Assembly: GCA_030647115.1 (NCBI GenBank)
Contig: JAUSJZ010000012.1
Span: 1-57,625 of the forward strand
Direction: 5' to 3'
DNA from: a bacterium
GTDB taxonomy: Bacteria > Patescibacteriota > UBA1384 > CAILIB01 > JAUSJZ01
Length of the DNA stretch: 57,625 nucleotides
A program made the translations under genes and the position numbers. Positions 19,841 to 55,300 of this stretch are shown here, in pieces; within the stretch, counting starts at the first letter, position 1, and the number at the start of each line of letters is the position of its first letter. Under the pieces are notes generated by a model. It saw only the letters and a list, made by a program, of their open reading frames with translations. It was not told the DNA's origin and searched no databases.

Positions 19841-19866
19841 GATCAAACAATAAACAGACCGTGAGC

Positions 19867-20048
19867 CTCGCTCGTGTGGGCGTCCCTTGTCAGCCCGCGT
19901 CGGCTAGATCTAACTTTAGATTACTATCTGAACGGTATGAGGTGATAACGCTAAACGATTAACATCATTTAGCTCTAATCACCTCATCCAGCCAGTCGAG
20001 AGTTAGATTACGCCGCCGTCTTAGCTGACATTCCCGCACTGACGCTCG
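19867..20048. repeat. A-family long imperfect palindrome, copy A1
   Basis: About 85% identical to 47037-47221 by eye. Arms fold on each other (cccttgtcag...ctaactt / agagttag...ctgacattccc). Inner stem atgaggtgat/atcacctcat. Confidence 0.8.
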
Positions 20049-20085
20049 GCCAGGTCTGTTTTTTGTTTTGATTACTGGCAACTAT

Positions 20086-20109
20086 GGGTGGTTGAGGTCG
20101 GCTCCAGAC
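20086..20109 (+). repeat. conserved 24-nt motif GGGTGGTTGAGGTCGGCTCCAGAC, copy 1
   Basis: Identical 24-mer at 35991-36014. In both places it sits in the loop of a local stem. Confidence 0.7.
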
Positions 20110-20197: not shown

Positions 20198-20803
20198 ATG
20201 AGTGCACAGTCAGACGAACGGACCTTTGGCCAAGCGGTGGAGTTGCTCCGTCGCATCGGCCAGAGTCTGAAGATGGGCCGACAGGCCCTGCAGTGGATCC
20301 TCAACAACTTCGCAGAGGTCGAGGACTGGGTGATCGCGCAGCTCAAACTGACCCTGTTGCCCTTGTTCGCCGCCAGCCTCGAAGGTTGGAAGGTGATCGA
20401 GGACGGCGAGGCGGTTGACGATGATGGGAGCTGGGTCGACGGGTTCTTTGCGGGTATGTCCCTCGCCTGCCTGCACCAGGACAGCGAGACGTACCTGACT
20501 GGCGAGGAGTTAGTGAAGAGGATCCGGCCGCGAATGGGTGGTCGGCGCGAGTTCGACCAGCACATCCTAGACTGGTTGTTCCGTCACTGGGACGACCCCC
20601 GCATCCCCACCTGGTTCAAGGAAGCCGTGGAGGGGGGCGACATCTACGTCGTCGCCACCGGCACGGTCATTCTGGACCCCGATGGCCGCCGGTGCGTGTT
20701 GTACCTGTTCTGGGGCGACGGTCGGCTCTACTGGCGCTGCCGCTGGCTCGGCTTCGGCGACTGGGACCGCCGCTGCCGTGGGTTGGTGCCCAGCGACTCC
20801 TGA
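20198..20803 (+). CDS. G+C-rich hypothetical protein, family X copy 1 (201 aa, Trp/Arg-rich C-terminus)
   Basis: GAAGGAAAGGA SD. Paralogous to 47971..48630 (ILDWL/LAEWL, IPxxW, GTV, DG, YLxWxDGR, WL, GxWD, DS-stop). Confidence 0.7.
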   Translation: MSAQSDERTFGQAVELLRRIGQSLKMGRQALQWILNNFAEVEDWVIAQLKLTLLPLFAASLEGWKVIEDGEAVDDDGSWVDGFFAGMSLACLHQDSETYLTGEELVKRIRPRMGGRREFDQHILDWLFRHWDDPRIPTWFKEAVEGGDIYVVATGTVILDPDGRRCVLYLFWGDGRLYWRCRWLGFGDWDRRCRGLVPSDS

Positions 20804-20828: not shown

Positions 20829-20870
20829 GCCTGCCTGCCGCCTGCCTGCCGGTAGGCAGGGTAGGCAGGG
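20829..20870. repeat. P-family palindrome, expanded/imperfect copy P1
   Basis: gcctgcctgcc gcctgcctgcc gg taggcagg g taggcagg g. Confidence 0.7.
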
Positions 20871-22286: not shown

Positions 22287-22447
22287 GAACTTATTGCAAA
22301 ACTTCCGATTCAGCCAAACTGTTTGGTTTTTCGCGAAAAGAGTGAAGGATGAGGAGGCGTATCAAACTGATACGTTGACGAGTCCTGAACTCTTTGTAGC
22401 CAAAACCAGACAGTTTGGGTCTAGAAAGGTAGTTTTGCAATGAGTTC
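22287..22447. repeat. B-family long imperfect palindrome, copy B1
   Basis: Terminal inverted repeats gaacttattgcaaaac / gttttgcaatgagttc. The reverse complement aligns along its length with 33892-34072. Confidence 0.75.
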
Positions 22448-25677: not shown

Positions 25678-26604
25678 TCAATCTTTTTTGCCGTGAAAGT
25701 GGGCGTGCACTGAACGCAGCTGGCTATTAGTCACATGAGTGTAGCGTTGAGTGGTGGTAACCGAGCTGTGGCCGAGCATATCTTGCACCGAGCGCAGGTC
25801 AGCCCCGTTCATTAAAAGTTCAGTGGCAAAAGAGTGACGTAGCGTATGCGGCGTCACTTTTTTTGTCAATCCGGCTAAGGACGCTCTTTTAGAGACGATG
25901 CGTTGGATTGACCGCGGCGTGAGCCGCTGGTCGGTCAGAATATCAGGGTTGGTCACCTTGCGATGGGCGATAAAGACAGCTTCGGCATTATCTGGCCGGG
26001 CCTTAAAGTACTCGTGCAGCGCCTCTTTGGCGGCGTCATCCAAAAACACCAGCCGTTCTTTGTTGCCCTTGCCTCGTACCGTTATCTCCCCCCGATCAAT
26101 GTTGAGTCTGTCACGCGATAGTTTGGTCAGTTCGCTGACGCGCAAGCCGGTGGAGTAGAGACACTCCAAAATGGCCTGGTCGCGTTTGCCGGTTAGGGTT
26201 TCGGTATTGATAGAACCAATCAGGTCGGCCACTTCGTCGGGCTCCAAAAAGTTAACTTCAGGTAGTGACATTTTAGGCAGTTCAATCTTATCGGCGCTTA
26301 AAGTGTCGATATCGCGCTTGGCACAGAAACGCAACCACGAGCGCAGAGCGATGACGTGGTAGCCTTGGGTCTGGGGCGAGAGCAGTTCGCCGTTCTCATC
26401 CTCAAACCGGGCCAGCCAGACCCGAAATTTTTGGATGTTGTCGGGGTTGAGCTGACTCGGCTTAGTAATCTCGTGTTCGGTGCACCAATTCGAGAAACGG
26501 GTGAGATAGCGGCGGTAATTGGTCAGAGTATTGGTAGCGCGGTGTCGTTCCACCTCTAAGTGTTCTAAAAAATCATCCACAATTGGGGTAATTTTGGCGC
26601 TCAT
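25678..26604 (-). CDS. xerC: tyrosine site-specific recombinase, XerC/XerD-like
   Basis: R...HTLRHSFATELL...GH..VTTTQRYTHV catalytic motifs. Start taken at ATG 26604 (the track uses TTG 26622). Confidence 0.88.
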   Translation of the reverse strand: MSAKITPIVDDFLEHLEVERHRATNTLTNYRRYLTRFSNWCTEHEITKPSQLNPDNIQKFRVWLARFEDENGELLSPQTQGYHVIALRSWLRFCAKRDIDTLSADKIELPKMSLPEVNFLEPDEVADLIGSINTETLTGKRDQAILECLYSTGLRVSELTKLSRDRLNIDRGEITVRGKGNKERLVFLDDAAKEALHEYFKARPDNAEAVFIAHRKVTNPDILTDQRLTPRSIQRIVSKRASLAGLTKKVTPHTLRHSFATELLMNGADLRSVQDMLGHSSVTTTQRYTHVTNSQLRSVHAHFHGKKD

Positions 26605-26624
26605 TACTTCATTATGACGCAATC

Positions 26625-33891: not shown

Positions 33892-34072
33892 GAACCGGTT
33901 GTAAAACTCCCTTTCAAGCCAAAATGTCCTGTTTTTGGCTGCCTACCTACCGGCAGGCAGGCAAATAGTTCAGGCCTCGTCGACGTATCTGTTTGATACG
34001 CCTCCTCCGCCTTCGCTATTTTCGCCTTAAAAACAGAACATTTTTGTTAAGCAGGAGTTTTGCAACCGGTTC
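33892..34072. repeat. B-family long imperfect palindrome, copy B2 (opposite orientation to B1)
   Basis: Termini gaaccggttgtaaaac / gttttgcaaccggttc. Central ggaggcgtatcaaac(a/t)gatacgt block shared with B1. Confidence 0.75.
33941..33962. repeat. P-family palindrome copy P2, nested in B2
   Basis: gcctacctaccggcaggcaggc is present in B2 and absent at the homologous point of B1. Confidence 0.7.
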
Positions 34073-35945: not shown

Positions 35946-35990
35946 AAGCCGCAAAAAGACCAATAATATCTTTCGCCGCCTGTCAACCGT

Positions 35991-36014
35991 GGGTGGTTGA
36001 GGTCGGCTCCAGAC
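35991..36014 (+). repeat. conserved 24-nt motif GGGTGGTTGAGGTCGGCTCCAGAC, copy 2
   Basis: Identical to 20086-20109. Enclosed by stem 35955-35970 / 36012-36027. Confidence 0.7.
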
Positions 36015-36089
36015 ATCATTGGTCTTTAGCCGGTTATCAGTTAACAAACAATACCAGGTAGTCGCACCATCTGGTATTTTTACAGTTGG

Positions 36090-36312
36090 TTATCTAGGGT
36101 GGGTCTGCGAACGAACTGCCCGGGAATGTCAGGTTCGACGGCGGCGTAATCTAACTCTCGATTACTGACGGTACCGTTATAGTCAAATAACATTTATGAT
36201 GTTTGACGTTACGGTGCCGATTCGGTTCGTTGGTAGTAGAAAGTTAGATCTAGCCGACGCGGGCCTGACAAGGGATTGCCCGGGCGAGTGAGTGGACCCC
36301 CACCCTAGATAA
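36090..36312. repeat. A-family long imperfect palindrome, copy A2 (inverted relative to A1/A3)
   Basis: The reverse complement aligns with A1/A3 on the outer arms. The inner stem is replaced by gcaccgt/acggtac. Extra outer stem ttatctagggtgggtc / gacccccaccctagataa. Confidence 0.8.
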
Positions 36313-36318
36313 TCTATA

Positions 36319-37692
36319 TTAGAAAAACGACCAGATGGTGGCGACGCCGGCGGTGACCATAATGGCGGTCGTAATCCAGCCGAGCCAGGTGGTGATAGGG
36401 TGATTGACCCGTTCACCCATAATTTTCTTATTGGCACTTAATATGACTATTAGGGCCAAAACGACCGGGGCGACCAGGCCGTTGGCGACCGCCGAGTAGA
36501 TCAACGCTTTAATCGGGTCAAGACCGACGAAATTGAGTCCCAATCCAATCAAAACCGACAAGATAATTACCCCGTAAAAGGCGTAGGCCTGTTTCAGTTT
36601 ATAGCTTAAACCCTGGCGCCAACCGAAACTCTCGGAGATGGCGTATGAGGCCGAGCCGGCGAGAACCGGAATACCCAACAGACACACTCCAATAATGCCG
36701 ATGGCGAAGAGGGCGTAAGAATAATCACCGGCTAAGGGGCGTAGGGCTTCGGCGGCCTGGGCGGCGGTCTCAATGTTCGTAATGCCGGTGGCGTTGAGTG
36801 TGGCGGCCGTAGCGGTGATAATAAAAAACATTACCAAATTGGATAAAAACATGCCTGACCAGACATCCACCCTCATATCTTTGATCTGTTCCGGTTGTAG
36901 CCCATTGCGGCGCGAAGCGATACTCGTCTCGCCGCTGGCGATCTCCTCTTCTACCTCTTGCGAGGTCTGCCAAAAAAACAGGTAGGGTGAGATGGTTGTA
37001 CCCAAAATAGCGCAGATCAAGATAATCTGGTCGCGATCAATATTGGCCAGCGAAGGTACGATAGCGGCCCGACCGATGGCCATCCAGTCTAAACCGTCTA
37101 TCAAGAGCGTCGAAAAAATATAGGACAGCAGCACTAAAGCCAGCCATTTCAAGTATTTGGCGTAGTTTTTGTAAGGGGTGAAGATCTGCAGACCCAAGAT
37201 CAGAGCGGTCATGCCGATGGCGATGAGACCAAAACTCCATTCGGGTCGAAAGAGACGCACCGCTTCGGCCATCGCTCCAATATCGGCTCCGATATTAAAG
37301 GTGTTGGCGGTGAAGAGCAGCATGGTGGCGGTCAACAGTACCCAGCGGGGGAAGTGCTTTTTGATGTTGGCGGCGAGACCCTGTCCGGTGACCAGGCCGA
37401 TGCGGGCACACATCTCTTGCACGATGGCCATGAGTGGAAAAGTAAAGGCAGCGAGCCACAAGAGACCGTAGCCGTAGCGGGCGCCCGTCTGCGAGTAGGT
37501 GGCGATGCCCGAGCCGTCGTCATCGGAGGCGCCGGTGGTCAAACCTGGTCCTAAAATGTGCCAGTAGTTTTTGGCAGCGGCCAGAGTTTTACGCCCACCC
37601 ATCTTGCCGGCCAGTTTTTCGGTGTCAAGAACGGCGCGCTCTAACATACGGGCCGGAGCCTCGGCTGCTTTTTCAATGAATTTTTTGGCCAT
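36319..37692 (-). CDS. mntH: NRAMP-family divalent metal transporter
   Basis: 457 aa, about 11 TM segments. LGPGLTTGASDDDGSGIATYSQTGARYGY motif region. Confidence 0.78.
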   Translation of the reverse strand: MAKKFIEKAAEAPARMLERAVLDTEKLAGKMGGRKTLAAAKNYWHILGPGLTTGASDDDGSGIATYSQTGARYGYGLLWLAAFTFPLMAIVQEMCARIGLVTGQGLAANIKKHFPRWVLLTATMLLFTANTFNIGADIGAMAEAVRLFRPEWSFGLIAIGMTALILGLQIFTPYKNYAKYLKWLALVLLSYIFSTLLIDGLDWMAIGRAAIVPSLANIDRDQIILICAILGTTISPYLFFWQTSQEVEEEIASGETSIASRRNGLQPEQIKDMRVDVWSGMFLSNLVMFFIITATAATLNATGITNIETAAQAAEALRPLAGDYSYALFAIGIIGVCLLGIPVLAGSASYAISESFGWRQGLSYKLKQAYAFYGVIILSVLIGLGLNFVGLDPIKALIYSAVANGLVAPVVLALIVILSANKKIMGERVNHPITTWLGWITTAIMVTAGVATIWSFF

Positions 37693-37744
37693 CTGTCTCT
37701 AGGATAGTCGGTGTAACCGGTCGGTGCAACTGACTCAATTAGGG

Positions 37745-37771
37745 CAAAAAAAGAACCCGCGGGTGCGGGGT
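37745..37771 (-). terminator. rho-independent terminator of the 3-gene cassette
   Basis: Minus strand reads accccgc-accc-gcgggt followed by tcTTTTTTT. Confidence 0.7.
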
Positions 37772-37778
37772 CTTAAGG

Positions 37779-38789
37779 TTAAGGTATCTCGCTTAGACTC
37801 TGATTGCCATCTCCGATTGCCAGAATCTCGGGTATGGCGACCTGGTTTTCGACGAGCCAACCCTGCGTCAGGGTCTCTTCGTTAATCTCCTGCCAGGTAA
37901 TGTGGAGGCAGAAGTTATCCCAATCGAACCAGACCAGGGGGGCGAACTCGTAGTCGGCGGGGCCAGCGGTGAGGCTGACCGTCCAGACACGTCGCACGCA
38001 TCCGAGCAACCACAGTTTCATGACGTGCTCATCGTAGAGGCGGGCCAACCAGAAGGCGTGGGCGAAGAGGTTCAGCACTCCGAGCCCGGCGGCCCGTTCT
38101 TGCCAGCGGTCATTGTTGAGCAGCTCGTGGCCTTGTAGCCGATCGAGCGGCAAGCGGAGCCGCTCCCAGTGAAGCGATCGTCGGCAGGTCATGCCTACCA
38201 GCCGGCATTCACCAGAGGTGACCTGGGACGGACGGGGTTGTCTCTCATTTGACATTATCCGATCGACGATCTGATCTCGATTGACTTTGACCCGGGATTT
38301 TCCAATAACCTGTCGTAGCTGGTCGATGGTATCTTCGAACTCTCGCTCCGGCTGGCCTAGTCGATACCAAGCCAACACGGTCGCTTCGAGATGGTCATCA
38401 TTTTCGGCTAATTGGGGGGCGTGCTGATCACCAGGTAGGTAGAGTTGATCTATCAGGGCGTCGGGTGGGATGTGGAGGCCGGGACCGGTGCAATCTTCAT
38501 GGGGCATCCACCACAACAACCGCATCATCTGGATTCGAGGATAGAGGGATTCCCAAACAAATGGGGTATGACCTGCCTCTCCGAAAGGTGTGATGGTATG
38601 TTCGGCCAGAGACAGCAGCTCGACTTGTTCGTAACCATGCGCTTTCAGCTGGCTATACATCAGAGACACCAGACCGGCATCGGTCAGAAGCTTCATCAGT
38701 TCGATGGCGTCAAAGGCAGTGTCTGCCTGTGGGCTACCAGTCTGCGGTCGCAATGATCGTCGGTGCAACTCAATGAAACCAGAATCCAT
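37779..38789 (-). CDS. G+C-rich hypothetical protein (336 aa, Trp-rich)
   Basis: TAGGAG SD 8 nt before the ATG at 38789 (track start TTG 38822 rejected). No family recognised. Confidence 0.65.
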   Translation of the reverse strand: MDSGFIELHRRSLRPQTGSPQADTAFDAIELMKLLTDAGLVSLMYSQLKAHGYEQVELLSLAEHTITPFGEAGHTPFVWESLYPRIQMMRLLWWMPHEDCTGPGLHIPPDALIDQLYLPGDQHAPQLAENDDHLEATVLAWYRLGQPEREFEDTIDQLRQVIGKSRVKVNRDQIVDRIMSNERQPRPSQVTSGECRLVGMTCRRSLHWERLRLPLDRLQGHELLNNDRWQERAAGLGVLNLFAHAFWLARLYDEHVMKLWLLGCVRRVWTVSLTAGPADYEFAPLVWFDWDNFCLHITWQEINEETLTQGWLVENQVAIPEILAIGDGNQSLSEIP

Positions 38790-38859
38790 GACGTCGACTC
38801 CTATCTGTTGGCGTTGAGCCAACTGTCTTGAACATAGCAGAAACAGCTACGAAAGCAAC

Positions 38860-40634: not shown

Positions 40635-42101
40635 ATGTTAAAGAGCGCCAAACCTGATCGTTTTTTTGTCACTACAGCGATACCGTACATGAACTCCCAC
40701 GTACACCTGGGGAACTGTTTGGAGTATGTTCTGGCCGATGCGCTGGCCCGAGCGGCGCGGCTGCGAGGTGAGCCAACTTACCTTTTGACCGGTACCGACG
40801 AACACGGTCAAAAAATTGTTACTACTGCCAAAGACAAAGGGGTTGAGGTACGCGAGTTCGTACAGGGTAACGTCGATTTCTTTCAAGCGGCACTTAAAGA
40901 GCTGAACGTCAGCTACGACGACTTTATTCGCACCTCCGATCAAAAAAGGCACTGGCCGGTGGTGCAGGCCTTCTGGCGTCGGCTCAAAGAGAAGGGTGAT
41001 TTGTACGAAAAGGATTATGAAGGTCTGTATTGTATCGGTTGTGAAGCCTTCTACCGCGAGGCCGATTTAGTTGACGGCCAGTGTCCTACCCATTTAACCA
41101 AACCGGAGCTGACGAAAGAGCGCAACTGGTTTTTTAAATTGTCACGGTACTCGACCGAGATTTTGGATTTTCTCAAAACCCGGGTGGAGCCACGCTGGCG
41201 GGCGAACGAGATGATTAAGTTTTTAGAGCAAGGGCTGGAAGATATCAGCTTCTCACGACCGAAAGCGAAGTTGAATTGGGGGATACCGGTACCCGACGAT
41301 GACAGCCAGGTAATTTACGTCTGGTGCGATGCTTTGGTCAATTATCTCTCGGCCGTAACGAGGGTCGAGGTAAACAAGAAAACGAAAGCGATTGACTTAA
41401 AATCAGATTGGTGGCCGGCGTCGGTGCACGTGGTCGGCAAAGATATCGCCAAGTTTCACACCCTCTACTGGCCGGCCATGTTGCTCTCGGCCGGTCTGGC
41501 CTTGCCCGAAAAAGTACTCATCCACGGTTTCATTACTATTAACGGGCAGAAGATCAGTAAATCACTCGGCAACGTCATTGAGCCGAAACAGATAACCGAA
41601 ACTTACGGCGTCGATGCCCTGCGTTTCTATTTTCTCCATGAGGTGCCGACCGTCGACGACGGTGATTTTTCGCTGAACCACTTGAAAGAGGTTTATAACG
41701 GAGTGCTGGCCGACGGGTTAGGCAACCTGGTGCAGCGGTTGATTGTCATGTCTAACAAATACGAAGTTAAGTGGAGCTGGCCGACCGGTACTAACACCGA
41801 CCTAGCCTACCGTGCGGTCTTAACAATTTGTTCGGCCGGGGGTCATTTTGAGGTCCAAAAAGCTTTAGACAAATTGGTCAAGCAGATTGAGGAGTTGAAT
41901 CGCAACATCCAGCAGCTGGCACCGTGGGAGCTTTTCAAGACCGAACCCGACCGGGCGCGCGACGAGCTAATCAAATTGCTCGACGAGTTGGCCCGGTTGG
42001 CGGTGACGCTAGAGCCGTTCTTACCCAATACGAGCGCTAAAATTATCACTCAACTGAAAACCCGTCAGCCGGAAGTGCTTTTTCCGAAATTGGATCAGTA
42101 A
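40635..42101 (+). CDS. metG: methionine--tRNA ligase (short form)
   Basis: HIGH-type motif HVHLGN. Zinc knuckle CIGCE...CPTH. KMSKS-type motif KISKS. Confidence 0.93.
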   Translation: MLKSAKPDRFFVTTAIPYMNSHVHLGNCLEYVLADALARAARLRGEPTYLLTGTDEHGQKIVTTAKDKGVEVREFVQGNVDFFQAALKELNVSYDDFIRTSDQKRHWPVVQAFWRRLKEKGDLYEKDYEGLYCIGCEAFYREADLVDGQCPTHLTKPELTKERNWFFKLSRYSTEILDFLKTRVEPRWRANEMIKFLEQGLEDISFSRPKAKLNWGIPVPDDDSQVIYVWCDALVNYLSAVTRVEVNKKTKAIDLKSDWWPASVHVVGKDIAKFHTLYWPAMLLSAGLALPEKVLIHGFITINGQKISKSLGNVIEPKQITETYGVDALRFYFLHEVPTVDDGDFSLNHLKEVYNGVLADGLGNLVQRLIVMSNKYEVKWSWPTGTNTDLAYRAVLTICSAGGHFEVQKALDKLVKQIEELNRNIQQLAPWELFKTEPDRARDELIKLLDELARLAVTLEPFLPNTSAKIITQLKTRQPEVLFPKLDQ

Positions 42102-43012
42102 TTATTTGACTTGGCTTCTATAGCGGCGGCTAGAGCAATCAAAGTATCGTTTTCAAGTTCCTGATAACCGTAAGGTGTAGGATCGCTACGAAGTCGGACA
42201 GTTGATTTTCTTAGCAGGGTGAAAATCCACCACAGATGGGAGAGTGAATATTGGTCACGATGGATATTGGCCATCAGTTCAGCGTCATCAACAATCAACC
42301 AATCCATTAGATGATTATTGGCTTCTGTTGGATGAAGATCCAATACAGCGCTGAGAACAGTTGACAGCTGGTCAAGTGGAATTATGTCTGTTGCAGCAGA
42401 GTCTTGAGCTAAGCTGATGTCGTTATGATGGGTGAGCAAATTGGACCCTAAAGTGGCGATCTCTTTTCTTAAATCCTTACTGTCCGGAGTACTGTTTGGT
42501 TGTGACAAAAAACTGCTGTTGTCGGTCGCGGCTCTTACGCCAGTTAACTCACCACTCTGTCTCTTCCAGCGGGGCCAGATCGTCATCACTTCAAACTGAT
42601 CGATCGAACCTTCGGGAACGACTGTTGTTATTAATTCACGCACGACGTTAAAAGAACGGCCGGTGGAACTGGTCTCATCTACTAAACAGATATTGTGCCC
42701 CAGATATCCTTGAAATGTCTCACTAAACCTGTTTTTTGTTTCGTCGGTGACAACAGCCGGTGGATTGACAAATTTGATTGCTGGTAATGGTGCTCGAGTG
42801 ATTTGGGGCCAGACCTCTTGTAGTAGCCAAGAAAAAGGGCGAGCACTTTTATCTAAGAAAATTAGGGTATCATATTCTTGTCTCTGGCACTGTTTAATGA
42901 GCTCGGTGATACCAAATTCGATCATTAATCTTTCGGCTGGGTTGGTCAGATAGCGAAACTTCTCGTTATTAGTCTCTGACTCATCGTTGCTCTCAGTGAC
43001 AATTTTTTCCAT
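42095..43012 (-). CDS. phosphoribosyltransferase-domain protein with an unknown ~130-aa C-terminal extension
   Basis: PRPP loop NICLVDETSSTGRS. Start taken at ATG 43012, because the track ORF runs antisense into the next gene. Confidence 0.6.
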   Translation of the reverse strand: MEKIVTESNDESETNNEKFRYLTNPAERLMIEFGITELIKQCQRQEYDTLIFLDKSARPFSWLLQEVWPQITRAPLPAIKFVNPPAVVTDETKNRFSETFQGYLGHNICLVDETSSTGRSFNVVRELITTVVPEGSIDQFEVMTIWPRWKRQSGELTGVRAATDNSSFLSQPNSTPDSKDLRKEIATLGSNLLTHHNDISLAQDSAATDIIPLDQLSTVLSAVLDLHPTEANNHLMDWLIVDDAELMANIHRDQYSLSHLWWIFTLLRKSTVRLRSDPTPYGYQELENDTLIALAAAIEAKSNNY

Positions 43013-43084
43013 TGTATTCCTGTCAATTATAACAGTACCGTCAGGAGTTTTATTAAATCGGACCAGATAGATTACAATGGGTTT

Positions 43085-43937: not shown

Positions 43938-44720
43938 ATGGTAGATACCCATTGCCACCTTGATTTCGAACCCTTCACCTATCACGAGGAGGAGTATTTG
44001 GCGCGGGCCAAAGAGCACGGCGTGACCTCGATTATTAACCCGGGCACTTCTTTGGTGACTTCAGAGAGGGCCATCCAACTGGCGCGGCACTACCCGCAGG
44101 TGCACGCGGCCGTCGGGCTGCATCCGACCGAGGCGAAGGGGGTGGATATCTCAACCGTTGAGACCTTTCGCGGTTTAGCCGAGCGGGAGCAGGTCATTGC
44201 TATCGGTGAGGTCGGGTTAGATTATTATCACCTAGAGCAGAACCCGGACGAGACGGCGAGTAAGCGGGAGCAGCAGTTTATCTTTGAGCAGTTCTGTTCG
44301 TTGGCTTATGATCTGAAGTTGCCATTAATAGTGCACGCCCGGGCGGCCATTGCCGACGCGCTGGCCATCGTGAAATCGTACGTGCGCGACGTCGAGGTCA
44401 TCTTTCACAGCTTTGACGGTACCTATGACGAGGCGAAGGCCATTATCGGTATTGGGGCCTACATTGGCATCAACAATATGATTACTTACCCCAAAAATGA
44501 TGATTTACGACAGGTGGTGAAAGAGCTGCCGCTCGACCGGTTTTTGCTCGAGACCGACGCCCCATTTCTACCGCCGCAAGAACGCCGCGGGGGTACCAGC
44601 GAGCCGGCCGATGTGGCCATCGTGGCCGAGGCGATTGCCGAGATCAAGAACCTGACGCTGCCTTTAATTGAGCGAGCGACGAATACCTCGGTGCGGCAGA
44701 TCTTTCGCATCGAGCCGTAA
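43938..44720 (+). CDS. tatD: TatD-family metal-dependent hydrolase
   Basis: VDTHCHLD, GEVGLDY, LETDAPFL. Confidence 0.9.
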   Translation: MVDTHCHLDFEPFTYHEEEYLARAKEHGVTSIINPGTSLVTSERAIQLARHYPQVHAAVGLHPTEAKGVDISTVETFRGLAEREQVIAIGEVGLDYYHLEQNPDETASKREQQFIFEQFCSLAYDLKLPLIVHARAAIADALAIVKSYVRDVEVIFHSFDGTYDEAKAIIGIGAYIGINNMITYPKNDDLRQVVKELPLDRFLLETDAPFLPPQERRGGTSEPADVAIVAEAIAEIKNLTLPLIERATNTSVRQIFRIEP

Positions 44721-44740
44721 AAAAAACGATATCATTGCCT

Positions 44741-44950
44741 CTCTAGCTCGGGCGATCCCTTGTCAGGCCCGCCTGCCTGCCGGCAGGCAGGCGTCTGCTA
44801 GATACAAACTTGTTGTTGCTAAATAGAACACTTTATTTGCCTACGCTTCCAACAACTGTCGTTGTTGAAGCTACGGCAAGTCAGCCACCAATTTTCAGAA
44901 GTTTGCATTATGCAGCCGTCGAACCTGATATTCCCGAGCAGTACGTTCGG
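44741..44950. repeat. A-family-related long palindrome, copy A4 (diverged interior)
   Basis: 5' arm ctcgggcgatcccttgtcaggcccgc...gtctgctagata. 3' arm aagtttgcattatgcagccgtcgaacctgatattcccgagcag. Both arms align with the A1/A3 arms. Confidence 0.65.
44770..44793. repeat. P-family perfect 24-bp palindrome, copy P3, nested in A4
   Basis: cgcctgcctgccggcaggcaggcg. 20 bp of it (44773-44792) is extra relative to A1/A3 at ...caggcccgc|gtc... Confidence 0.8.
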
Positions 44951-44995
44951 CAACGATATTGTTTTTTTGTTAACATGATACTAAGGGAGTCAATT

Positions 44996-45579: not shown

Positions 45580-45604
45580 AAAAACTCCGGCCGGGTGGCC
45601 GGAG
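45580..45604 (-). terminator. rho-independent terminator
   Basis: Minus strand reads ctccggcc-accc-ggccggag followed by TTTTT. Confidence 0.7.
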
Positions 45605-45633
45605 GCAAAGGGGGGGGCTGACAGACCGGAGTC

Positions 45634-46227
45634 TTAGGCCTCGCTCGGGAGCTCGTTGAGGTCGGGGCCGACCAGGCTGGGCTCCCGCTCCAGACGATCC
45701 AGCCGCTCGGTCAGCGTGGCGAGCTGCAACTGCTGTTCGGCGAGTTGCTTTTCCTGTCGCGCGAGATCCCGCCGCAGGCAGTCCCAGTGCGTGGTCGTGA
45801 CCAGTTGGTCGGGCCAGACCCGCCGCGGCAACAGCGTGCCGCGCCGCACCCGCCACATCATCTGCAGCGCGTGCTTGAGCTCGATGGCGGAAATCTCGAG
45901 CTTGTAGCACGGCGTCTTGCCGGAGTAGTGGTGCAATAGGCCGCTGGCGGTGGCCCAGCGGTACTCGCCCTCCTGCCGCACGACACGATGCATAATGTCG
46001 TGGATCGTGACGTGGCTGGCGAGAGCCACCAGGCTCTCGGGGAACAACGGAGCCTCGTTGTCGTTGATGATGGGGTCGCTGACGTACAGCAGACCCGTCT
46101 GACACGTCTCTACCCGGGCACCGCTAGCCTTGTGGTAGCGGTAGCGGTTCGGCTTCTGATCACGCCACGCGAAGTGACGGGCCATCTCTCGTGCATCCAT
46201 CTGCTTCAGGTACAATCGTGTACTCAT
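45634..46227 (-). CDS. G+C-rich hypothetical protein (197 aa) with a C-terminal coiled coil
   Basis: GAGGAGA SD 5 nt before the ATG at 46227. The track ORF extension to 46419 would overlap the promoter and the neighbouring gene. Confidence 0.65.
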   Translation of the reverse strand: MSTRLYLKQMDAREMARHFAWRDQKPNRYRYHKASGARVETCQTGLLYVSDPIINDNEAPLFPESLVALASHVTIHDIMHRVVRQEGEYRWATASGLLHHYSGKTPCYKLEISAIELKHALQMMWRVRRGTLLPRRVWPDQLVTTTHWDCLRRDLARQEKQLAEQQLQLATLTERLDRLEREPSLVGPDLNELPSEA

Positions 46228-46294
46228 GTCGGTCTCCTCTGTCGCTTGGTTCAGCAGCGAGTGGTCCCGCTGTCTGTGGCGACTTTCACGAAGT

Positions 46295-46323
46295 ACTTTA
46301 GCATAAAGAAGACATTTTGTCAA
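46295..46323 (-). promoter_or_regulatory. sigma70-type promoter
   Basis: Minus strand reads TTGACA, 17-nt spacer, TAAAGT. Confidence 0.55.
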
Positions 46324-46354
46324 TGAAAAACCGCCTTTGTGATATACTCTATAA

Positions 46355-47014
46355 ATGACTACAGAAGCAAAGGTTGTATTAGGTATCGCGCTGGCAACAG
46401 TGGTTTTATTGGGCGGCATTATCTGGTCGAGTACCCGTAAGCAAGCGGGTCAGTTATCTTACACCACTGACTTCCCGGCCGATTATCAGACGGGCGACAT
46501 CATCAACGACACTGACTACCAAGACGGGTCCAAAGAGGCCAAAGTCACTGTCGTTAATTTCTCAGATTACGAGTGTCCTTTCTGTCGCGAGGTGCACCCT
46601 ATTTTTATGGCGCTACGCGATGATTTTACGACCGAAGAGCTGCGTTTGGTCTGGAGACACTTGCCCATTACCGAGATCCACCAGCAGGCTTACCCAGCGG
46701 CGGTAGCGGCCCAGGCGGCCTTGAAACAGGGCAAATTTAAGGAGTTTAGCGACGCGCTGTTCAACAACGTACCGCGCTTGAGTGAGGAGTTTTACCAATC
46801 ACTGGCCCAAGATTTAGGTCTCAATGTTGATCAGTTTAATCAAGACCGGCAGAACGTGGCGATTCAGTGGGAGGCCTACCGCGCCCGTACCTACTTTGGC
46901 GATCACGCCTTACGCATTCAGACACCGACCATTTATATCAACGGGGTGGAGTATACGGGCGAGCGTACCAAAGAGGCAATTGAGGGGGCAATCAAAGTGC
47001 AGCTGGCTCTGTAG
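46355..47014 (+). CDS. DsbA-like thioredoxin-fold protein (membrane-anchored)
   Basis: N-terminal TM. Active site YECPFC. Confidence 0.8.
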   Translation: MTTEAKVVLGIALATVVLLGGIIWSSTRKQAGQLSYTTDFPADYQTGDIINDTDYQDGSKEAKVTVVNFSDYECPFCREVHPIFMALRDDFTTEELRLVWRHLPITEIHQQAYPAAVAAQAALKQGKFKEFSDALFNNVPRLSEEFYQSLAQDLGLNVDQFNQDRQNVAIQWEAYRARTYFGDHALRIQTPTIYINGVEYTGERTKEAIEGAIKVQLAL

Positions 47015-47026
47015 CTCTGTTTAACG

Positions 47027-47233
47027 TTATCATGGTCTCGCTCGCCCGGGCGATCCCTTGTCAGGCCCGCGTCGGCTAGATCTAACTTTATATTACTAAC
47101 TCACCTGTATGAGGTGATAACGTCAAACGACTGACGTCATTTGACTATAATCACCTCATCCAGCCAATCGAGAGTTAAATTACGCCGCCGACGAACCTGA
47201 CATTCCCGGGCAGGACGCTCGACCACGGTAATG
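47027..47233. repeat. A-family long imperfect palindrome, copy A3
   Basis: Core 47037-47221 aligns with A1. Inner stems are atgaggtgat/atcacctcat and gtcaaa/tttgac. Confidence 0.8.
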
Positions 47234-47267
47234 TCAAACAAGCTAGTAGCGCCAATTGTTTTTACCT

Positions 47268-47295
47268 AAAATGAAAACCGCCCTCAGTAGGGCGG
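47268..47295 (-). terminator. rho-independent terminator
   Basis: Minus strand reads ccgccct-actg-agggcgg followed by TTTTcaTTTT. Confidence 0.65.
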
Positions 47296-47320
47296 TCGTA
47301 GGTGGACCGGTCGCTGTCTG

Positions 47321-47776
47321 CTAGAGACAGGGCACCGGCTCGTGGGGCGTCGGGATGTGGAAGCGGGTGGTCTCATCCGCGAGCGGGACGTTCTTCATGT
47401 CCCGGTTGGGGCCCTCGCCCGGAACATCCGGGTAGACCTCGTTGACGGTCAGACCCACCGTCTGCCAGCGGCCATCCTTCTTCAGGTAGGTCACGATGTA
47501 GGGGTGGTAGAAGGTCCGGCCGCATTGCGGTGCCCCGTCGACGTGGTAGCCGACGTATTCGGTCTTGATGTAGACCGAGCAGACGTGCTGCCCGCGACAC
47601 GAGAACTCGTAACGCGCCGGGAAATCAGCATAGGTCTGCTCGAGATCATACAGCTCGTATCCGGGAGCCGGGGCTCCCTCGAGGTGACCGTCGAACAGAC
47701 GCTGCAGGCACTTCAACGCCTCGAAGGCGCTGCCGGTGATCTGCCAAGTCGGGTACGTGCGGGGTTTGGTGGACAC
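47321..47776 (-). CDS. G+C-rich hypothetical protein (151 aa)
   Basis: GAAAGGGA SD 5 nt before the GTG at 47776. The track start TTG 47854 lies within the -10 box. Confidence 0.6.
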   Translation of the reverse strand: MSTKPRTYPTWQITGSAFEALKCLQRLFDGHLEGAPAPGYELYDLEQTYADFPARYEFSCRGQHVCSVYIKTEYVGYHVDGAPQCGRTFYHPYIVTYLKKDGRWQTVGLTVNEVYPDVPGEGPNRDMKNVPLADETTRFHIPTPHEPVPCL

Positions 47777-47853
47777 GGGAGTCCCTTTCTGGGCTGTTTC
47801 AGCCCGCTTAGACGAGGGCGGCGGGTTACCGCTCCTCGGTTTCGAACGGGGCA

Positions 47854-47885
47854 ACTATAGCACGAAAGGGGGGGTTGTTTGTCAA
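47854..47885 (-). promoter_or_regulatory. extended -10 promoter (TGcTATAGT) with a distal TTGACA
   Basis: Minus strand reads TTGACA, 20-nt spacer, TATAGT preceded by TGc. Shares TTTCGTGCTAT with the 39701-39729 promoter. Confidence 0.45.
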
Positions 47886-47900
47886 GATTCGGGCTCTGTA

Positions 47901-47929
47901 TTGACGTAATTGGTGTGATCTGTTAGTAT
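47901..47929 (+). promoter_or_regulatory. sigma70-type promoter of X2, divergent from the previous one
   Basis: TTGACG, 17-nt spacer, (TGt)TAGTAT. Confidence 0.6.
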
Positions 47930-47970
47930 CACCCAGAGATGAGCCGGCAACCACCGGCGAGAAAGGGACC

Positions 47971-48630
47971 GTGATGATTGGAACGACACATGTCTGGGAG
48001 ACCACCCAGGCAATCAAGATGGCGGGGCACACCGGAGATGCGATTGCTCCGGCGTTGGGGTCATACGACCCGGCCAAGTTGCTCGGTCTCGTGCAGAGCC
48101 ATGCGGAGCTGTACCGGCAGACGATGGAGGCCGCCCTGGCGGACTTCTGGAGCTCCTTCAAGTCGCCGTTCAAGTACGACAAGACCTGCGACGACTGGGA
48201 GCTCGTCAAACCGGAAGGCGAGGACTGGCGCCAGTGGCCGGTCGACCCGACCGCCACCGGCCCGGGTGTGCGCATCGAGTGGGACCCGATCCACATCCCC
48301 GAGTTGTTCGAGGAGGTCTCGTTCATCCGTGAGGTTGACGGGGGCTTCGTGAGTGGTCTCAAGATGTGGCAGCGCGCCCTGGACCCGGCCGAGTGCAACT
48401 GTCCTGACGGCCAGTTCCTCGCCGAGTGGCTGCTTCTGCACCAGCAGTACATCCCAAAGAGCTGGCGGGGCCACTATCTGGTGTTCCCGGGCACCGTGTG
48501 GCGCAGCCGCGACGGCGCTCTGGATGTGGCGTACCTCGGCTGGAGCGATGGGCGCTGGTGCCTCGACTTCGGCTGGCTCGACGATGGCTGGGACGGCTAC
48601 GACCGTCTGCTGCGCCGCCGCGACTCCTGA
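47971..48630 (+). CDS. G+C-rich hypothetical protein, family X copy 2 (219 aa)
   Basis: GAAAGGGA SD before GTG-ATG. The C-terminal ~100 aa align with 20198..20803. 20 of 21 nt spanning the stop codon are shared (cgactcctgaccc[t/c]gatcct). Confidence 0.7.
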   Translation: MMIGTTHVWETTQAIKMAGHTGDAIAPALGSYDPAKLLGLVQSHAELYRQTMEAALADFWSSFKSPFKYDKTCDDWELVKPEGEDWRQWPVDPTATGPGVRIEWDPIHIPELFEEVSFIREVDGGFVSGLKMWQRALDPAECNCPDGQFLAEWLLLHQQYIPKSWRGHYLVFPGTVWRSRDGALDVAYLGWSDGRWCLDFGWLDDGWDGYDRLLRRRDS

Positions 48631-48659
48631 CCCCGATCCTCTACCTTGATTGGCTCTCT

Positions 48660-48689
48660 GCCTGGGCGGCTGGCGCCCGGGCATTTTTT
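48660..48689 (+). terminator. rho-independent terminator
   Basis: gcctgggcg / cgcccgggc stem followed by aTTTTTT. Confidence 0.65.
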
Positions 48690-48707
48690 ATCAGTGTTAA
48701 ATGAGTC

Positions 48708-48731
48708 AAAAAACCGCCCCGGAGGGGGCGG
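48708..48731 (-). terminator. rho-independent terminator of the DUF1653-like gene
   Basis: Minus strand reads ccgcccc-ctcc-ggggcgg followed by TTTTTT. Confidence 0.65.
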
Positions 48732-48756
48732 CGGTCAGGGAGAGGAGAGAGGTAAA

Positions 48757-49020
48757 CTAGGCAGAGACGGGTTGAAACCTGATGATGCCAGTATCAGTTG
48801 GCTTCAGCCATTCAGACAACAGCCTGTGCCAAATAAGCTGGTTGCCATAAAGGGCCTGGTAGGTGACCATTGGCTGTTCAGAGGCTTCGTCGATGCCAAC
48901 CAGCAAAACTCGATACTGTCGCTCTGGGTGCTTGAAGTGGGCATATAAACCGTGAACAGTTACCTGCTGCTTGGCGGCTGCAATTCGCTCTGCTAATTGA
49001 TCTTCGGTGGCTCGTTCCAT
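48757..49020 (-). CDS. DUF1653-like small protein
   Basis: GLYAHFKHPERQYRVL...MVTYQALYGNQLIWHR fits the YRHYKG..Y...VVY..LYG...W.RP pattern. Confidence 0.65.
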   Translation of the reverse strand: MERATEDQLAERIAAAKQQVTVHGLYAHFKHPERQYRVLLVGIDEASEQPMVTYQALYGNQLIWHRLLSEWLKPTDTGIIRFQPVSA

Positions 49021-49090
49021 GGTTGTTCCTTATTGGTATTATAGCCACTTTGTTGAGTTTTGGCCTTAAATTAAGTATCATTGTCCCGAC

Positions 49091-53769: not shown

Positions 53770-53873
53770 TTAGAGCCCCTTTTTGCTTAACTACTAGAGA
53801 TGTCAGGTTCAGAAAGCGTTAGTTTCTGCATATCGGGGTTTGTTGATATGCGGCGACTGACATTTAGTCAGTC

Positions 53874-53959
53874 GCCGGGGTGGCGAAATGGTAGACGTAC
53901 CAGCTTTAGGAGCTGGCGGGAGCAATCCCATGGAGGTTCAAGTCCTCTCCCCGGCACCA
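53874..53959 (+). tRNA. tRNA-Leu (anticodon UAG), CCA encoded
   Basis: Acceptor GCCGGGG/CCCCGGC. Anticodon arm ccagc-tTTAGga-gctgg. Long variable arm. T arm ggagg-ttcaagt-cctct. Ends in ACCA. Confidence 0.9.
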
Positions 53960-54006
53960 AATGGTCTGTATCCTAAGGGATACAGACCATTTGGTATCTG
54001 TCCGAA

Positions 54007-54044
54007 GCAACCTCAACTGCTTGAGGTTGCGGGAGGACTTGAAG
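54007..54044 (+). repeat. D hairpin motif, copy 1
   Basis: gcaacctc-AACTGCTT-gaggttgc followed by gggaggactgaag-like tail. Confidence 0.55.
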
Positions 54045-54094
54045 GGTTGGCGCATCTGCCGCAGGCAGGAGCCAACCCCGGGGTACGAAGTACC

Positions 54095-54115
54095 CAAGTC
54101 CTCTCCCCGGCACCA
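54095..54115 (+). repeat. 21-nt direct repeat of the tRNA-Leu 3' end (att-like)
   Basis: caagtcctctccccggcacca is identical to 53939-53959. Confidence 0.8.
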
Positions 54116-54217
54116 TGCCAAATGACTAAATGTCATTTGGCATACGGGTTGAATATTTTTCTAAACAAAGTATTAAGTCCAGAGTCAATATCTAACACTA
54201 CCAAACAGCGGCTATGC

Positions 54218-54241
54218 CGCCTGCCTGCCGGCAGGCAGGCG
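54218..54241. repeat. P-family perfect 24-bp palindrome, copy P4
   Basis: cgcctgcctgccggcaggcaggcg, identical to 44770-44793. Confidence 0.8.
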
Positions 54242-54298
54242 TCGATATGATGGCATATAAATGGCCATCTTTTTTAGTACTGACGTCTTGGTTCTTTA

Positions 54299-55219: not shown

Positions 55220-55221
55220 AG

Positions 55222-55244: not shown

Positions 55245-55300
55245 TTGTGCCCATTTTTTTTTATGGTACTTTAGAAGGAGTAACAAGTAAGGGGCATTAT

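What the first reader, a model, noticed from the sequence alone, without database searches (positions are those of the whole stretch)
19867..20109. A-family 180-225 bp long-hairpin repeats with compensatory arm changes, parked at gene 3' ends and next to cassettes
**Copies:** A1 19867-20048, A2 36090-36312 (inverted), A3 47027-47233, and the diverged A4 44741-44950.

**Structure.** Each copy is a near-complete inverted repeat. The arms read cccttgtcaggcccgcgtcggctagatctaactt... and ...agagttagattacgccgcc..ctgacattcccggg.

**Differences between copies preserve pairing.**
- A3 has GTCAAA:TTTGAC where A1 has GCTAAA:TTTAGC.
- The 10-bp stem atgaggtgat:atcacctcat of A1 and A3 is replaced in A2 by gcaccgt:acggtac.
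- The unpaired linkers (aacgtcaaa, tttgactataa) stay the same.

**Location.**
- All four copies begin within about 145 bp of a stop codon (groEL, the OmpR-type regulator, the DsbA-like gene, tatD). Three of them begin within about 30 bp.
- Three are followed by a cassette gene.

**Possible roles:**
- a structured RNA or RNA-stability element;
- a MITE;
- a folded-DNA recombination site that nucleates cassette insertion, attC-like in concept only.
Basis: seen in the sequence. Interest (0 to 1): 0.75.

Follow-up and report, generated by a model that had tools for sequence, protein, structure and literature searches.

The report
Long-hairpin repeat parked after stop codons
Four copies of a roughly 200-base non-coding repeat that folds into one long hairpin each sit directly after a gene's stop codon in an uncultured bacterium; it is most likely a small mobile palindromic element of a known general kind, not a new gene-capture system.

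Summary
A covariance model and nhmmer find exactly four copies in the window: cores at 19867-20053 (+), 36103-36292 (-), 47037-47226 (+) and 44739-44954 (+). Core identity is 63-86%.

Each copy folds into one long imperfect hairpin (z -6 to -7.6). Of 65 consensus pairs, 25 carry changes on both sides, and 93.8% of cells are paired against 82.8% in shuffles.

What I add:
- Each full hairpin is longer (226-286 nt) and reaches, or enters, the stop codon of the gene upstream in the element's own orientation, in 4 of 4 copies.
- A related species (about 84% nucleotide identity) lacks A4 and A3 at the orthologous sites and keeps only a 40-nt right-end remnant.
- The antisense strand folds better than the sense strand.
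- The paired changes come in blocks.
- Gene insertions occur at these junctions in relatives that have no A element.
- No integron integrase or transposase lies in the window, and Rfam, JGI metagenome, viral, phage and plasmid searches found nothing (the reference-genome scan was uninformative).

Best reading: a new family of non-autonomous palindromic repeats, like YPAL, ERIC, Correia and SPRITE, carried in 3' untranslated regions. Its pairing is probably kept by DNA-level template switching, by selection, or both. The cassette-nucleation idea is not supported.

The parts
19845..20072 (+). A1, full hairpin (conserved core 19867-20053). It starts 5 nt after the groEL stop (19840) and ends in the U-rich tract GGTCTGTTTTTTGTTTTG.
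   Evidence: (I17). The outer A-tract/T-tract stem matches the sequence after groEL in relatives L122, L123 and L127.
36060..36345 (-). A2, full hairpin (core 36103-36292), inverted relative to the others. Its left end in element orientation overlaps the last 26 nt of the Nramp CDS (stop at 36319). The far side (36060-36103) is an inverted copy of that gene end.
   Evidence: (I1, I18)
47005..47253 (+). A3, full hairpin (core 47037-47226), the copy closest to the consensus. The pairing covers the stop codon of the DsbA-like gene (47012-47014).
   Evidence: It is absent after the orthologous DsbA-like gene in L125 and L126.
44720..44968 (+). A4, full hairpin (core 44739-44954), the most diverged copy. 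It starts at the last base of the TatD stop and ends in TTGTTTTTTTG. It lies 19 nt before the next small ORF.
   Evidence: (I10). The orthologous TatD-to-small-ORF spacer is 52 nt in L125 against 274 nt here.
44769..44795 (+). REP-like mini-palindrome CCGCCTGCCTGCCGGCAGGCAGGCGTC nested in the left arm of A4, inserted just 5' of the CGTC that the other copies carry at this point. Other copies of it lie at 20838, 33939 and 54217.
   Evidence: (family D4)

Best explanation
**What it is.** The A family is a new family of non-autonomous, non-coding palindromic interspersed repeats. It is MITE-like in the broad sense and closest in behaviour to YPAL/RU-2, ERIC, Correia and SPRITE. The host is an uncultured bacterium whose GroEL is nearest to Patescibacteria.

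**Shown.**
- There are four dispersed copies in 57.6 kb.
- Each is a single imperfect hairpin of 226-286 nt.
- The middle module of about 60 nt per arm is conserved, including its asymmetric bulges. The apical and outer stems vary but still pair.
- Every copy has its left end within 10 nt of a stop codon, in the sense orientation, or overlapping that stop codon.
- Copies are present or absent between related species.

**Inferred.**
1. Copies spread by a DNA mechanism catalysed in trans. It has a preference for, or is only tolerated in, the short stretch between a stop codon and the next gene's signals. At the groEL locus the copy sits inside a pre-existing A-tract/T-tract terminator frame.
2. 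Once in place, a copy is transcribed as the 3' end of the upstream mRNA. There the hairpin, plus a U-tract in A1 and A4, would act as a terminator or a 3'-end protecting or processing structure.
3. Arm complementarity is kept, and even extended outward into the end of the coding region, mainly by replication template switching within the palindrome. This rewrites one arm from the other in blocks. Selection for a foldable element may add to it.
4. The variable genes next to A1 and A3 reflect permissive or fragile terminator junctions, not A-catalysed capture.
For: **Repeat family and structure**
- Four copies and no more in the window. Identities are 63-86%.
- No long ORF in any frame.
- Hairpin z-scores are -5.95 and -7.63.
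- 25 of 65 pairs have two-sided changes, and 0 of 500 shuffles reach any of the five measures.

**Mobility or turnover**
- The sister-species contig L125 is syntenic at 83-86% nucleotide identity.
- It has a 52-nt TatD spacer without A4 and an unstructured 144-nt spacer after the DsbA-like gene without A3.
- It does carry a 40-nt A right-end remnant at L125 8475-8514, directly after another gene's stop codon.
- The same-strain short-read contig L121 stops inside A1.
- A REP-like element is nested in A4, and likewise in the second hairpin family B. The MITE review notes such elements inserting into one another (PMC10969869).

**Position**
- All four left ends lie within 10 nt of a stop codon, sense-oriented. 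The rough chance is about 2e-6 if insertion were uniform over non-coding DNA.

**Terminator frame at groEL**
- The A-rich run after the stop and the T-rich run on the far side are shared with L123. L123 holds an unrelated 160-nt hairpin there (z -7.7).
- They are shared more loosely with L127, which holds a 56-nt hairpin followed by a T-run.

**DNA-level maintenance**
- Two-sided changes are concentrated in three blocks: helix 1 (6 of 8 pairs), helix 6 (9 of 10) and helix 7 (5 of 9). The middle helices hardly vary.
- A2's distal flank is an inverted copy of about 45 nt that includes the Nramp coding end.
- The antisense strand is more stable than the sense strand in 4 of 4 copies.
- PMC8794818 shows that template switching creates and maintains hairpins and their compensatory changes.

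**Known parallels**
- YPAL is 168 bp, not A+T-rich, has internal inverted repeats, and its targets span or adjoin dyad symmetry.
- ERIC and Correia are co-transcribed and affect mRNA fate (PMC2229807).
Against: - No direct target-site duplication is visible; the flanks are reverse complements of each other.
- The exact termini cannot be defined.
- The window holds no transposase, RAYT or other candidate mobilising enzyme.
- Only four copies are available, so the covariation statistics rest on a few events.
- A census outside this contig failed. The reference-genome scan was uninformative because of my choice of pattern.
- JGI metagenomes, IMG/VR, phages and plasmids gave no hit.
- Only A1 and A4 have a U-tract right after the hairpin.
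- No expression data exist.
- The empty sites in L125 could in principle be losses rather than the ancestral state.
Confidence: 0.6

Rival explanations
1. A conserved cis-acting structured RNA, a 3'UTR terminator or stability element. It would be kept by selection on the RNA fold and copied to several genes, with true stepwise compensatory evolution. The DNA would not itself be mobile.
For: - All four copies are sense-oriented directly behind a stop codon.
- A1 and A4 have U-tracts.
- Pairing is strongly preserved.
- The unpaired bulge GATCCCTT and other asymmetries are conserved in all four copies.
Against: - The antisense strand folds 5-22 kcal/mol better than the sense strand in all four copies.
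- Changes come as blocks, including a whole 10-bp stem swap at only about 78% overall identity.
- No Rfam family matches.
- The sister species does without the element at the TatD and DsbA-like genes.
- A 100-bp near-perfect duplex is atypical for functional bacterial RNAs and typical for MITE transcripts (PMC2229807, PMC10969869).
Confidence: 0.17
2. A folded single-stranded-DNA recombination site, attC-like or like the CTX-phage attP hairpin. A tyrosine recombinase would use it to insert single-gene cassettes next to it.
For: - ATCTAAC (RYYYAAC) in the left arm pairs with GTTAGAT or GTTAAAT (GTTRRRY) in the right arm in A1-A3.
- The bottom strand folds better.
- GC-rich orphan genes, each with its own promoter or terminator, follow A1 and A3.
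- The L125 remnant sits at a boundary between variable genes.
- A Xer-type recombinase lies at 25678-26622.
Against: - The recombinase is below the IntI cut-off (139 against 265 bits). It is best matched by XerC/XerD models, and a similar recombinase gene lies in the same gene neighbourhood in distant relative L127.
- The boxes lie about 55 bp inside the stem and are not conserved in A4.
- The element is 190-286 nt long, against 57-141 for attC. That range is established knowledge, not tested here.
- The copies are 2-16 kb apart among housekeeping genes, not in an array.
- A4 and A2 have no cassette beside them.
- The same junctions gain genes in relatives without A.
- Three window-specific insertions have no A beside them.
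- The breakpoint of the L125 remnant is not at the GTT box.
Confidence: 0.05
3. Not a transposing element. A long terminator palindrome, perhaps originating at groEL, would be copied to other gene ends by ectopic gene conversion or illegitimate recombination. It would then be enlarged locally by palindrome growth.
For: - A short CCTCGCT motif is shared between the A core start and the groEL terminators of L122 and L127.
- The outer stems are specific to each copy.
- There is no target-site duplication and no transposase.
Against: - Gene conversion needs pre-existing homology at the recipient sites, and the empty sites in L125 show none.
- A3 and A4 share their outermost stems (family D7), as expected for element ends.
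- The motif match is only 7 nt.
Confidence: 0.13

Closest known systems
YPAL / RU-2 (Yersinia palindromic sequence, 168 bp)
   Same: - Length is in the same range, about 170-230 bp.
- It is not A+T-rich (A is 51-53% GC in a 52.7% GC window).
- It has no 5'-TA-3' termini.
- Its inverted repeats are internal rather than strictly terminal.
- Its targets span or lie next to dyad symmetry.
- Filled and empty sites are seen between related species (PMC2229807).
   Different: - There is no sequence relationship, and the host phylum is different.
- YPAL makes 3-26 bp direct duplications. None can be shown for A.
- A's strict placement at stop codons is not reported for YPAL.
ERIC/IRU and Correia/NEMIS elements
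   Same: - They are imperfect palindromes co-transcribed with the neighbouring genes.
- Orientation affects the fate of the mRNA, through RNase E for ERIC and RNase III for Correia (PMC2229807).
- There are many intergenic copies.
   Different: - They are shorter (127 bp; 100-155 bp).
- They have TA termini and TA target-site duplications.
- Correia carries IHF and promoter motifs.
- None of these features is seen in A.
[quoted passage not shown]
   Same: - It is a repeat family that looks like, and may act as, an intrinsic terminator.
- Such repeats insert into one another (PMC10969869).
- A1 and A4 end in U-tracts, and A4 carries a nested REP.
   Different: - The hairpin is much longer.
- Only two of the four copies have a U-tract.
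- The host is unrelated.
Integron attC sites (for example Vibrio VCRs)
   Same: - They are imperfect palindromes directly after an ORF's stop codon.
- Their asymmetries are conserved.
- The bottom strand is the better folder.
- RYYYAAC/GTTRRRY-like boxes are present in A1-A3.
   Different: - There is no IntI and no array.
- The boxes lie in mid-stem and are not conserved in A4.
- The element is too long.
- Cassette boundaries do not map to the boxes.
Template-switch (quasipalindrome) mutation
   Same: It explains one-step, multi-base changes that look compensatory, and the outward extension of stems (PMC8794818). This is the pattern seen in helices 1, 6 and 7 and in A2's copy of the Nramp gene end.
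   Different: It is a mutational process, not an element family. It explains how pairing is maintained, not how copies are dispersed.

Membership tests
MITE (bacterial, classical definition) | Small, non-coding, present in several dispersed copies | tested here: met
   Four copies of 190-286 nt. The six-frame translation is full of stops.
MITE (bacterial, classical definition) | Terminal inverted repeats | tested here: met
   The whole element is an imperfect inverted repeat, with conserved arm modules of about 60 nt. The exact termini are not defined.
MITE (bacterial, classical definition) | Direct target-site duplication flanking each copy | tested here: not met
   The flanks are reverse complements of each other, not direct repeats. 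The short direct matches seen (for example AACGATAT at A4) lie within self-palindromic sequence and are ambiguous.
MITE (bacterial, classical definition) | Filled and empty sites between related genomes | tested here: met
   A4 and A3 are absent at the orthologous sites of L125, and A3 also of L126.
MITE (bacterial, classical definition) | Cognate autonomous element or transposase with matching ends | not testable with these tools
   No transposase lies in the window. The rest of the genome could not be reached.
Integron attC site | Integron integrase (IntI) nearby | tested here: not met
   The only tyrosine recombinase (25678-26622) scores 139 bits against TIGR02249, whose cut-off is 265. Its best matches are XerD and XerC at 251-252 bits. 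A similar tyrosine recombinase gene lies in the same gene neighbourhood (next to PAP2 and BacA) in L127.
Integron attC site | R''/R' core sites (RYYYAAC / GTTRRRY) forming the base of the stem and conserved in all sites | tested here: not met
   ATCTAAC and GTTAGAT are present in A1-A3, but about 55 bp inside the stem. They are replaced by ACAAACT/AGTTTGC in A4.
Integron attC site | Tandem array of ORF-attC units, with cassette junctions at R' | tested here: not met
   The copies are 2-16 kb apart among housekeeping genes. The breakpoint of the L125 remnant lies near CTGACA|TTCCCGGG, not at GTT.
Intrinsic (rho-independent) terminator | Stable hairpin immediately followed by a U-tract on the transcribed strand | tested here: inconclusive
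   A1 (TGTTTTTTGTTTT) and A4 (TGTTTTTTTG) have it. A2 and A3 do not. The simple scanner cannot score stems this long.
REP / REPIN (RAYT-mobilised) | 20-40 nt GC-rich palindrome with a GTAG or CGTC tag, singly or as an inverted doublet, with a RAYT gene in the genome | tested here: not met
   A is one continuous hairpin of about 200 nt without such units. The small D4 palindrome nested in A4 does fit the REP description (PMC3733652). No RAYT lies in the window.
Any curated structured RNA family (Rfam 15) | Covariance-model match | tested here: not met
   At gathering thresholds, only tRNA-Leu matches in the window. Nothing overlaps A3 or A4 at E<=1.

The most novel reading that the evidence does not exclude
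The A hairpins are folded single-strand DNA sites used by the host's Xer-like tyrosine recombinase, or by an unseen enzyme, to place and exchange single-gene cassettes at gene 3' ends. That would be an integron-like gene-capture system without IntI, in a Patescibacteria-like lineage. A milder version: a structure-specific element seeks out terminator hairpins right after stop codons, and its palindrome fragility creates the hot spots for gene insertion.
Probability: 0.05. Interest if true: 0.85.

Novelty: new member of a known kind. Interest (0 to 1): 0.4.

Why it matters
- If the main reading is right, this adds a well-delimited hairpin-repeat family to a poorly studied, small-genome lineage. 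It shows such genomes carry MITE-like and REP-like repeats that break short-read assemblies.
- It gives a clean natural example of "compensatory" stem changes that are better explained by DNA template switching than by selection on RNA. This is a caution for covariation-based RNA discovery.
- The strict placement at stop codons, and the hairpin growing into the end of the coding region, are unusual enough to merit a genome-wide census.
- It does not open a new mechanism class on present evidence.

Tried and rejected
1. **Reference-genome scan, wasted.** BLAST of the A copies against all 120 loci found nothing real.
2. **Pattern scans, no hits.** Two JGI metagenome scans, one with a left-arm pattern and one with a two-anchor pattern spanning the element, gave 0 hits. 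Two IMG/VR scans gave 0 hits.
3. **BLAST of A3, no match.** Neither INPHARED phages nor PLSDB plasmids matched.
4. **Six-frame peptide search, no hits.** I concatenated the six-frame peptides of the four copies as a protein query, to catch spurious ORFs called inside other copies. None scored E<=10. This used the last protein search, so the RR-Nramp (A2) site could not be checked in relatives.
5. **Exact-protein look-up of the DsbA-like gene:** not on record.
6. **Wobble-pair test for a sense-strand RNA.** It came out the other way: the antisense strand is more stable.
7. **Is the 160-nt hairpin after groEL in L123 a diverged A copy?** Neither nhmmer nor the covariance model matches it.
8. **Annotation of the variable genes.** Pfam, NCBIfam, PHROGs and PADLOC gave no hits. 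ORF201 does belong to a real but unnamed family, with 121 representative clusters.
9. **Naming the organism.** Cluster look-ups returned no names.

Full report

Yes. The quoted sequences are at the stated places, and the four stretches align over about 190 columns.

A covariance model built from the cores (R1, 190 positions, 52 pairs) finds exactly four full matches:
- 47037-47226 (+), 225 bits
- 36103-36292 (-), 197 bits
- 19867-20053 (+), 194 bits
- 44739-44954 (+), 164 bits

The only other strong hits are the reverse strands of three of the same palindromes; two weak hits in relatives are covered in section 4. nhmmer with all filters off gives the same four. Core identity is 85.7% for A1/A3, 77.5% for A2/A3, 70.6% for A1/A2, and 63-69% for A4 against the rest. 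Each copy folds into one long hairpin far more stable than shuffles, with z -5.95 for A1 and -7.63 for A3.

**2. Do differences between copies preserve pairing?**

Yes.
- RNAalifold on the four copies gives 65 pairs, 25 of them with a change on both sides in at least one copy.
- When the pairs are counted explicitly, 93.8% of cells are standard pairs, against 82.8 +/- 1.4% when the 3' partners are shuffled. None of 500 shuffles reaches the observed value for any of the five measures.
- Sliding the partners by 1-3 columns drops pairing to 32-46%.

The two-sided changes are not scattered:
- They sit in three blocks: the outermost stem (6 of 8 pairs), the 10-bp inner stem (9 of 10) and the apical stem (5 of 9).
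- The middle helices, about 60 nt per arm, hardly vary.
- These middle helices include an asymmetric GATCCCTT bulge and conserved C·A mismatches.
- A3 is closest to the consensus. A1 and A2 each carry private block changes.

**3.

The pairing continues outside the conserved core. The full hairpins are 19846-20071, 36060-36345, 47005-47253 and 44720-44968.

In the element's own orientation, the left end of every hairpin touches the stop codon of the upstream gene:
- A1 starts 5 nt after the groEL stop.
- A4 starts at the last base of the TatD stop.
- A3's pairing covers the stop of the DsbA-like gene.
- A2, inverted, pairs with the last 26 nt of the Nramp coding sequence. The far side of A2 (36060-36103) is an inverted copy of about 45 nt that includes that gene end.

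So the relevant neighbour of A2 is Nramp, not the OmpR-type regulator (gene identities). With an approximate list of 66 genes, the chance that all four left ends fall within 10 nt downstream of a stop codon in the sense orientation is about 2e-6, if insertion were uniform over non-coding DNA. This is a rough figure, and selection against disruptive insertions is not modelled.

Other features:
- A1 and A4 are followed at once by U-rich runs. A2 and A3 are not.
- The elements are not A+T-rich: 51-53% GC in a window of 52.7%.
- No frame is open across the element.
- A4 carries a 20-27 nt REP-like palindrome inserted just 5' of a CGTC. The same palindrome occurs three more times in the window.

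**4. Relatives**

Its GroEL has unnamed relatives at 97%, 87% and 75-80% identity. The nearest named proteins, at about 66%, are from Patescibacteria.

*Same strain.* A 14-kb short-read contig from run SRR13727527 is 100% identical to the window and ends inside A1 at 19912. That is expected where a repeat breaks an assembly.

*Sister species.* Contigs from run SRR22387922 are syntenic at 83-86% nucleotide identity.
- The TatD-to-small-ORF spacer is 52 nt with no A4, against 274 nt in the window.
- The 144 nt after the DsbA-like gene hold no A3 and no significant structure (z 0.0).
- A more distant relative, L126, also has no long hairpin after its DsbA-like gene (z -1.2).
- The sister species does hold a 40-nt piece, 87.5% identical to the right end of A3. 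It lies directly after the stop codon of a gene absent from the window, in the same DsbA-to-MnmA interval (L125 8475-8514). It no longer forms a hairpin.
- So the family predates the species split, and copies are gained, lost or broken.

*Wider search.* The covariance model finds no full copy in about 83 kb of relatives' DNA; its only hits there are a 9.7-bit match at the L125 remnant and a 7.1-bit chance hit in L122.

**5. The groEL locus**

- In the 87% relative (L123 and L124), groEL and the convergent DUF5665 gene are 160 nt apart. The whole spacer is a different long hairpin (z -7.7).
- In the 78% relative (L127), groEL is followed by a 56-nt hairpin plus a T-run.
- In the 79% relative (L132), it is followed by a short canonical terminator.
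- The A-rich run just after the stop (CAAACAA.AAA) and the T-rich run on the far side (CTGTTTTTTGTTTT) are shared between the window and L123, and loosely with L127. The interior differs completely.
- At this locus, therefore, A1 sits inside an older A-tract/T-tract terminator frame.
- At the TatD and DsbA sites, the sister species shows no such frame.

**6. The cassette claim**

The gene after A1 (20198-20803) is real.
- It is GC-rich at 66%.
- It has its own promoter-like site and its own terminator-like hairpin.
- It belongs to an unnamed family with 121 representative clusters.
- It is absent from L123.

However, the evidence does not tie gene insertion to A:
- The same groEL|DUF5665 junction holds three small genes in L127, a 299-residue gene in L129-L131 and a 148-residue gene in L132. 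None of these has an A element.
- Compared with the sister species, the window has further single-gene insertions at 37731-38859, 42099-43066 and 45581-46354, with no A copy beside them.
- The ORF after A4 is conserved in the species that lacks A4.
- A2 has no cassette next to it.

So gene insertion is a property of these junctions and of this genome, not of A. Long palindromes may still make some junctions fragile. The remnant in L125 at a gene-content boundary fits that, but this is inference.

**7. RNA or DNA?**

If the fold were selected in the mRNA, G·U pairs should favour the sense strand. The opposite is seen. As RNA, the antisense strand is more stable in all four copies: -102 against -97, -146 against -123, -119 against -104, and -101 against -93 kcal/mol. 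A simple arm-against-arm count shows no excess of sense-strand wobbles either.

Three things are hard to reach by stepwise compensatory substitution:
- the block-wise two-sided changes;
- a complete 10-bp stem swap at about 78% overall identity;
- an inverted copy of a coding end.

All three are what replication template switching within a quasi-palindrome produces (PMC8794818). Outward growth would stop where it meets a constrained coding sequence. That would explain why the left boundary coincides with the stop codon and why the non-coding side is the copy. This step is inferred, not shown. The conserved asymmetric middle module points to a sequence-specific partner, such as a transposase or another protein, or simply to recent common descent.

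**8. What it is not**

- Rfam has no match.
- The window has no transposase, RAYT or reverse transcriptase.
- The only recombinase is Xer-like, below the integron-integrase cut-off, and a similar gene lies in the same neighbourhood in a distant relative.
- ATCTAAC and GTTAGAT fit the attC R''/R' consensus (established knowledge). But they lie in mid-stem, are lost in A4, and do not coincide with any junction.

**9. Comparison with known elements**

In behaviour, the A family is closest to YPAL/RU-2 of Yersinia. YPAL is 168 bp, not A+T-rich, without TA ends, with internal inverted repeats, with targets at or next to dyad symmetry, and with filled and empty sites between species (PMC2229807).

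It also resembles ERIC and Correia elements, which are co-transcribed hairpins that alter mRNA stability in an orientation-dependent way (PMC2229807). And it resembles SPRITE, a terminator-like repeat; such repeats are known to insert into one another (PMC10969869).

It differs in three ways: no demonstrable direct duplication, a longer and more complete hairpin, and strict placement at stop codons. It is a member of none of these families by sequence.

The window also holds a second, unrelated long-hairpin family (22287-22447 and 33892-34072) and a REP-like family. Repeats of this general kind are therefore a feature of this genome.

**10. Verdict**

The most likely identity is a new family of non-autonomous palindromic repeats living in 3'UTR positions (confidence about 0.6). 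A probable side effect is transcript termination or 3'-end stability. Arm pairing is kept largely by DNA-level processes. The cassette-nucleation idea is not supported.

The main weakness is that only four copies and one contig could be examined.

Noticed in passing
window 20075-20109 and 35980-36014: A 35-nt repeat, CTG.CAAC..TGGGTGGTTGAGGTCGGCTCCAGAC, whose last 24 nt are identical in both copies (0 expected by chance). It lies next to the right end of A1 and of A2, in opposite orientation relative to the element. At 20111 it is followed at once by a promoter-like TTGACT-17-TATGGT. Its function is unknown, and it was not found in relatives' loci.
   Followed up: partly
window 20838-20864, 33939-33965, 44769-44795, 54217-54243: A REP-like GC-rich mini-palindrome, GCCTGCCTGCCGGCAGGCAGGC, ending in CGTC in two copies. 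This resembles the CGTC-tagged REP superfamily (PMC3733652). One copy is nested in A4 and another in the B2 hairpin element.
   Followed up: partly
window 22287-22447 and 33892-34072: A second long-hairpin repeat family (B). The two copies are 77% identical and have 19-20 nt terminal inverted repeats, GAAC..TTG.AAAACT.CC. B1 fills the S18/EF-P junction, where the two genes are 1-2 nt apart in relatives L127, L129 and L132. B2 lies in a divergent intergenic region.
   Followed up: partly
window 37731-38859, 42099-43066, 45581-46354, 47254-49090; L125 7600-10480: Single-gene insertions or replacements relative to the sister species. Several are GC-rich (60-67% against 52.7%), some have their own short terminators, and none has a hit in Pfam, NCBIfam, PHROGs or PADLOC. 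In L125 the DsbA-to-MnmA interval instead holds three other genes, including an AbiEii-domain protein.
   Followed up: partly
window 20198-20803 and 47971-48630: Two orphan genes share a C-terminal motif (44% identity over 52 residues). The first has 121 representative homologue clusters but no family name (family D5, 29, 88).
   Followed up: partly
window 53874-54135: The 3' end of tRNA-Leu, GTCCTCTCCCCGGCACCA, is repeated about 150 nt downstream (around 54090-54108). The whole stretch is bracketed by a 28-nt inverted repeat (53858-53885 / 54108-54135). A perfect 18-bp hairpin overlaps the last bases of the tRNA (53956-53995). It looks like the scar of an integrative element at a tRNA gene.
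   Followed up: no
window 55193-57625: Three tandem paralogous PsbP_2-domain genes, with repeat units of about 800-830 nt at 74-85% identity.
   Followed up: no
window 5277-7514: The type IV pilus ATPase (T2SSE + MshEN) carries an N-terminal HU-like Bac_DNA_binding domain. The same architecture is present in relative L127.
   Followed up: no
L123 8848-9000: In the 87%-GroEL relative, the entire groEL/DUF5665 spacer is one 160-nt hairpin (z -7.7). It is unrelated in sequence to A but framed by the same A-tract/T-tract.
   Followed up: yes
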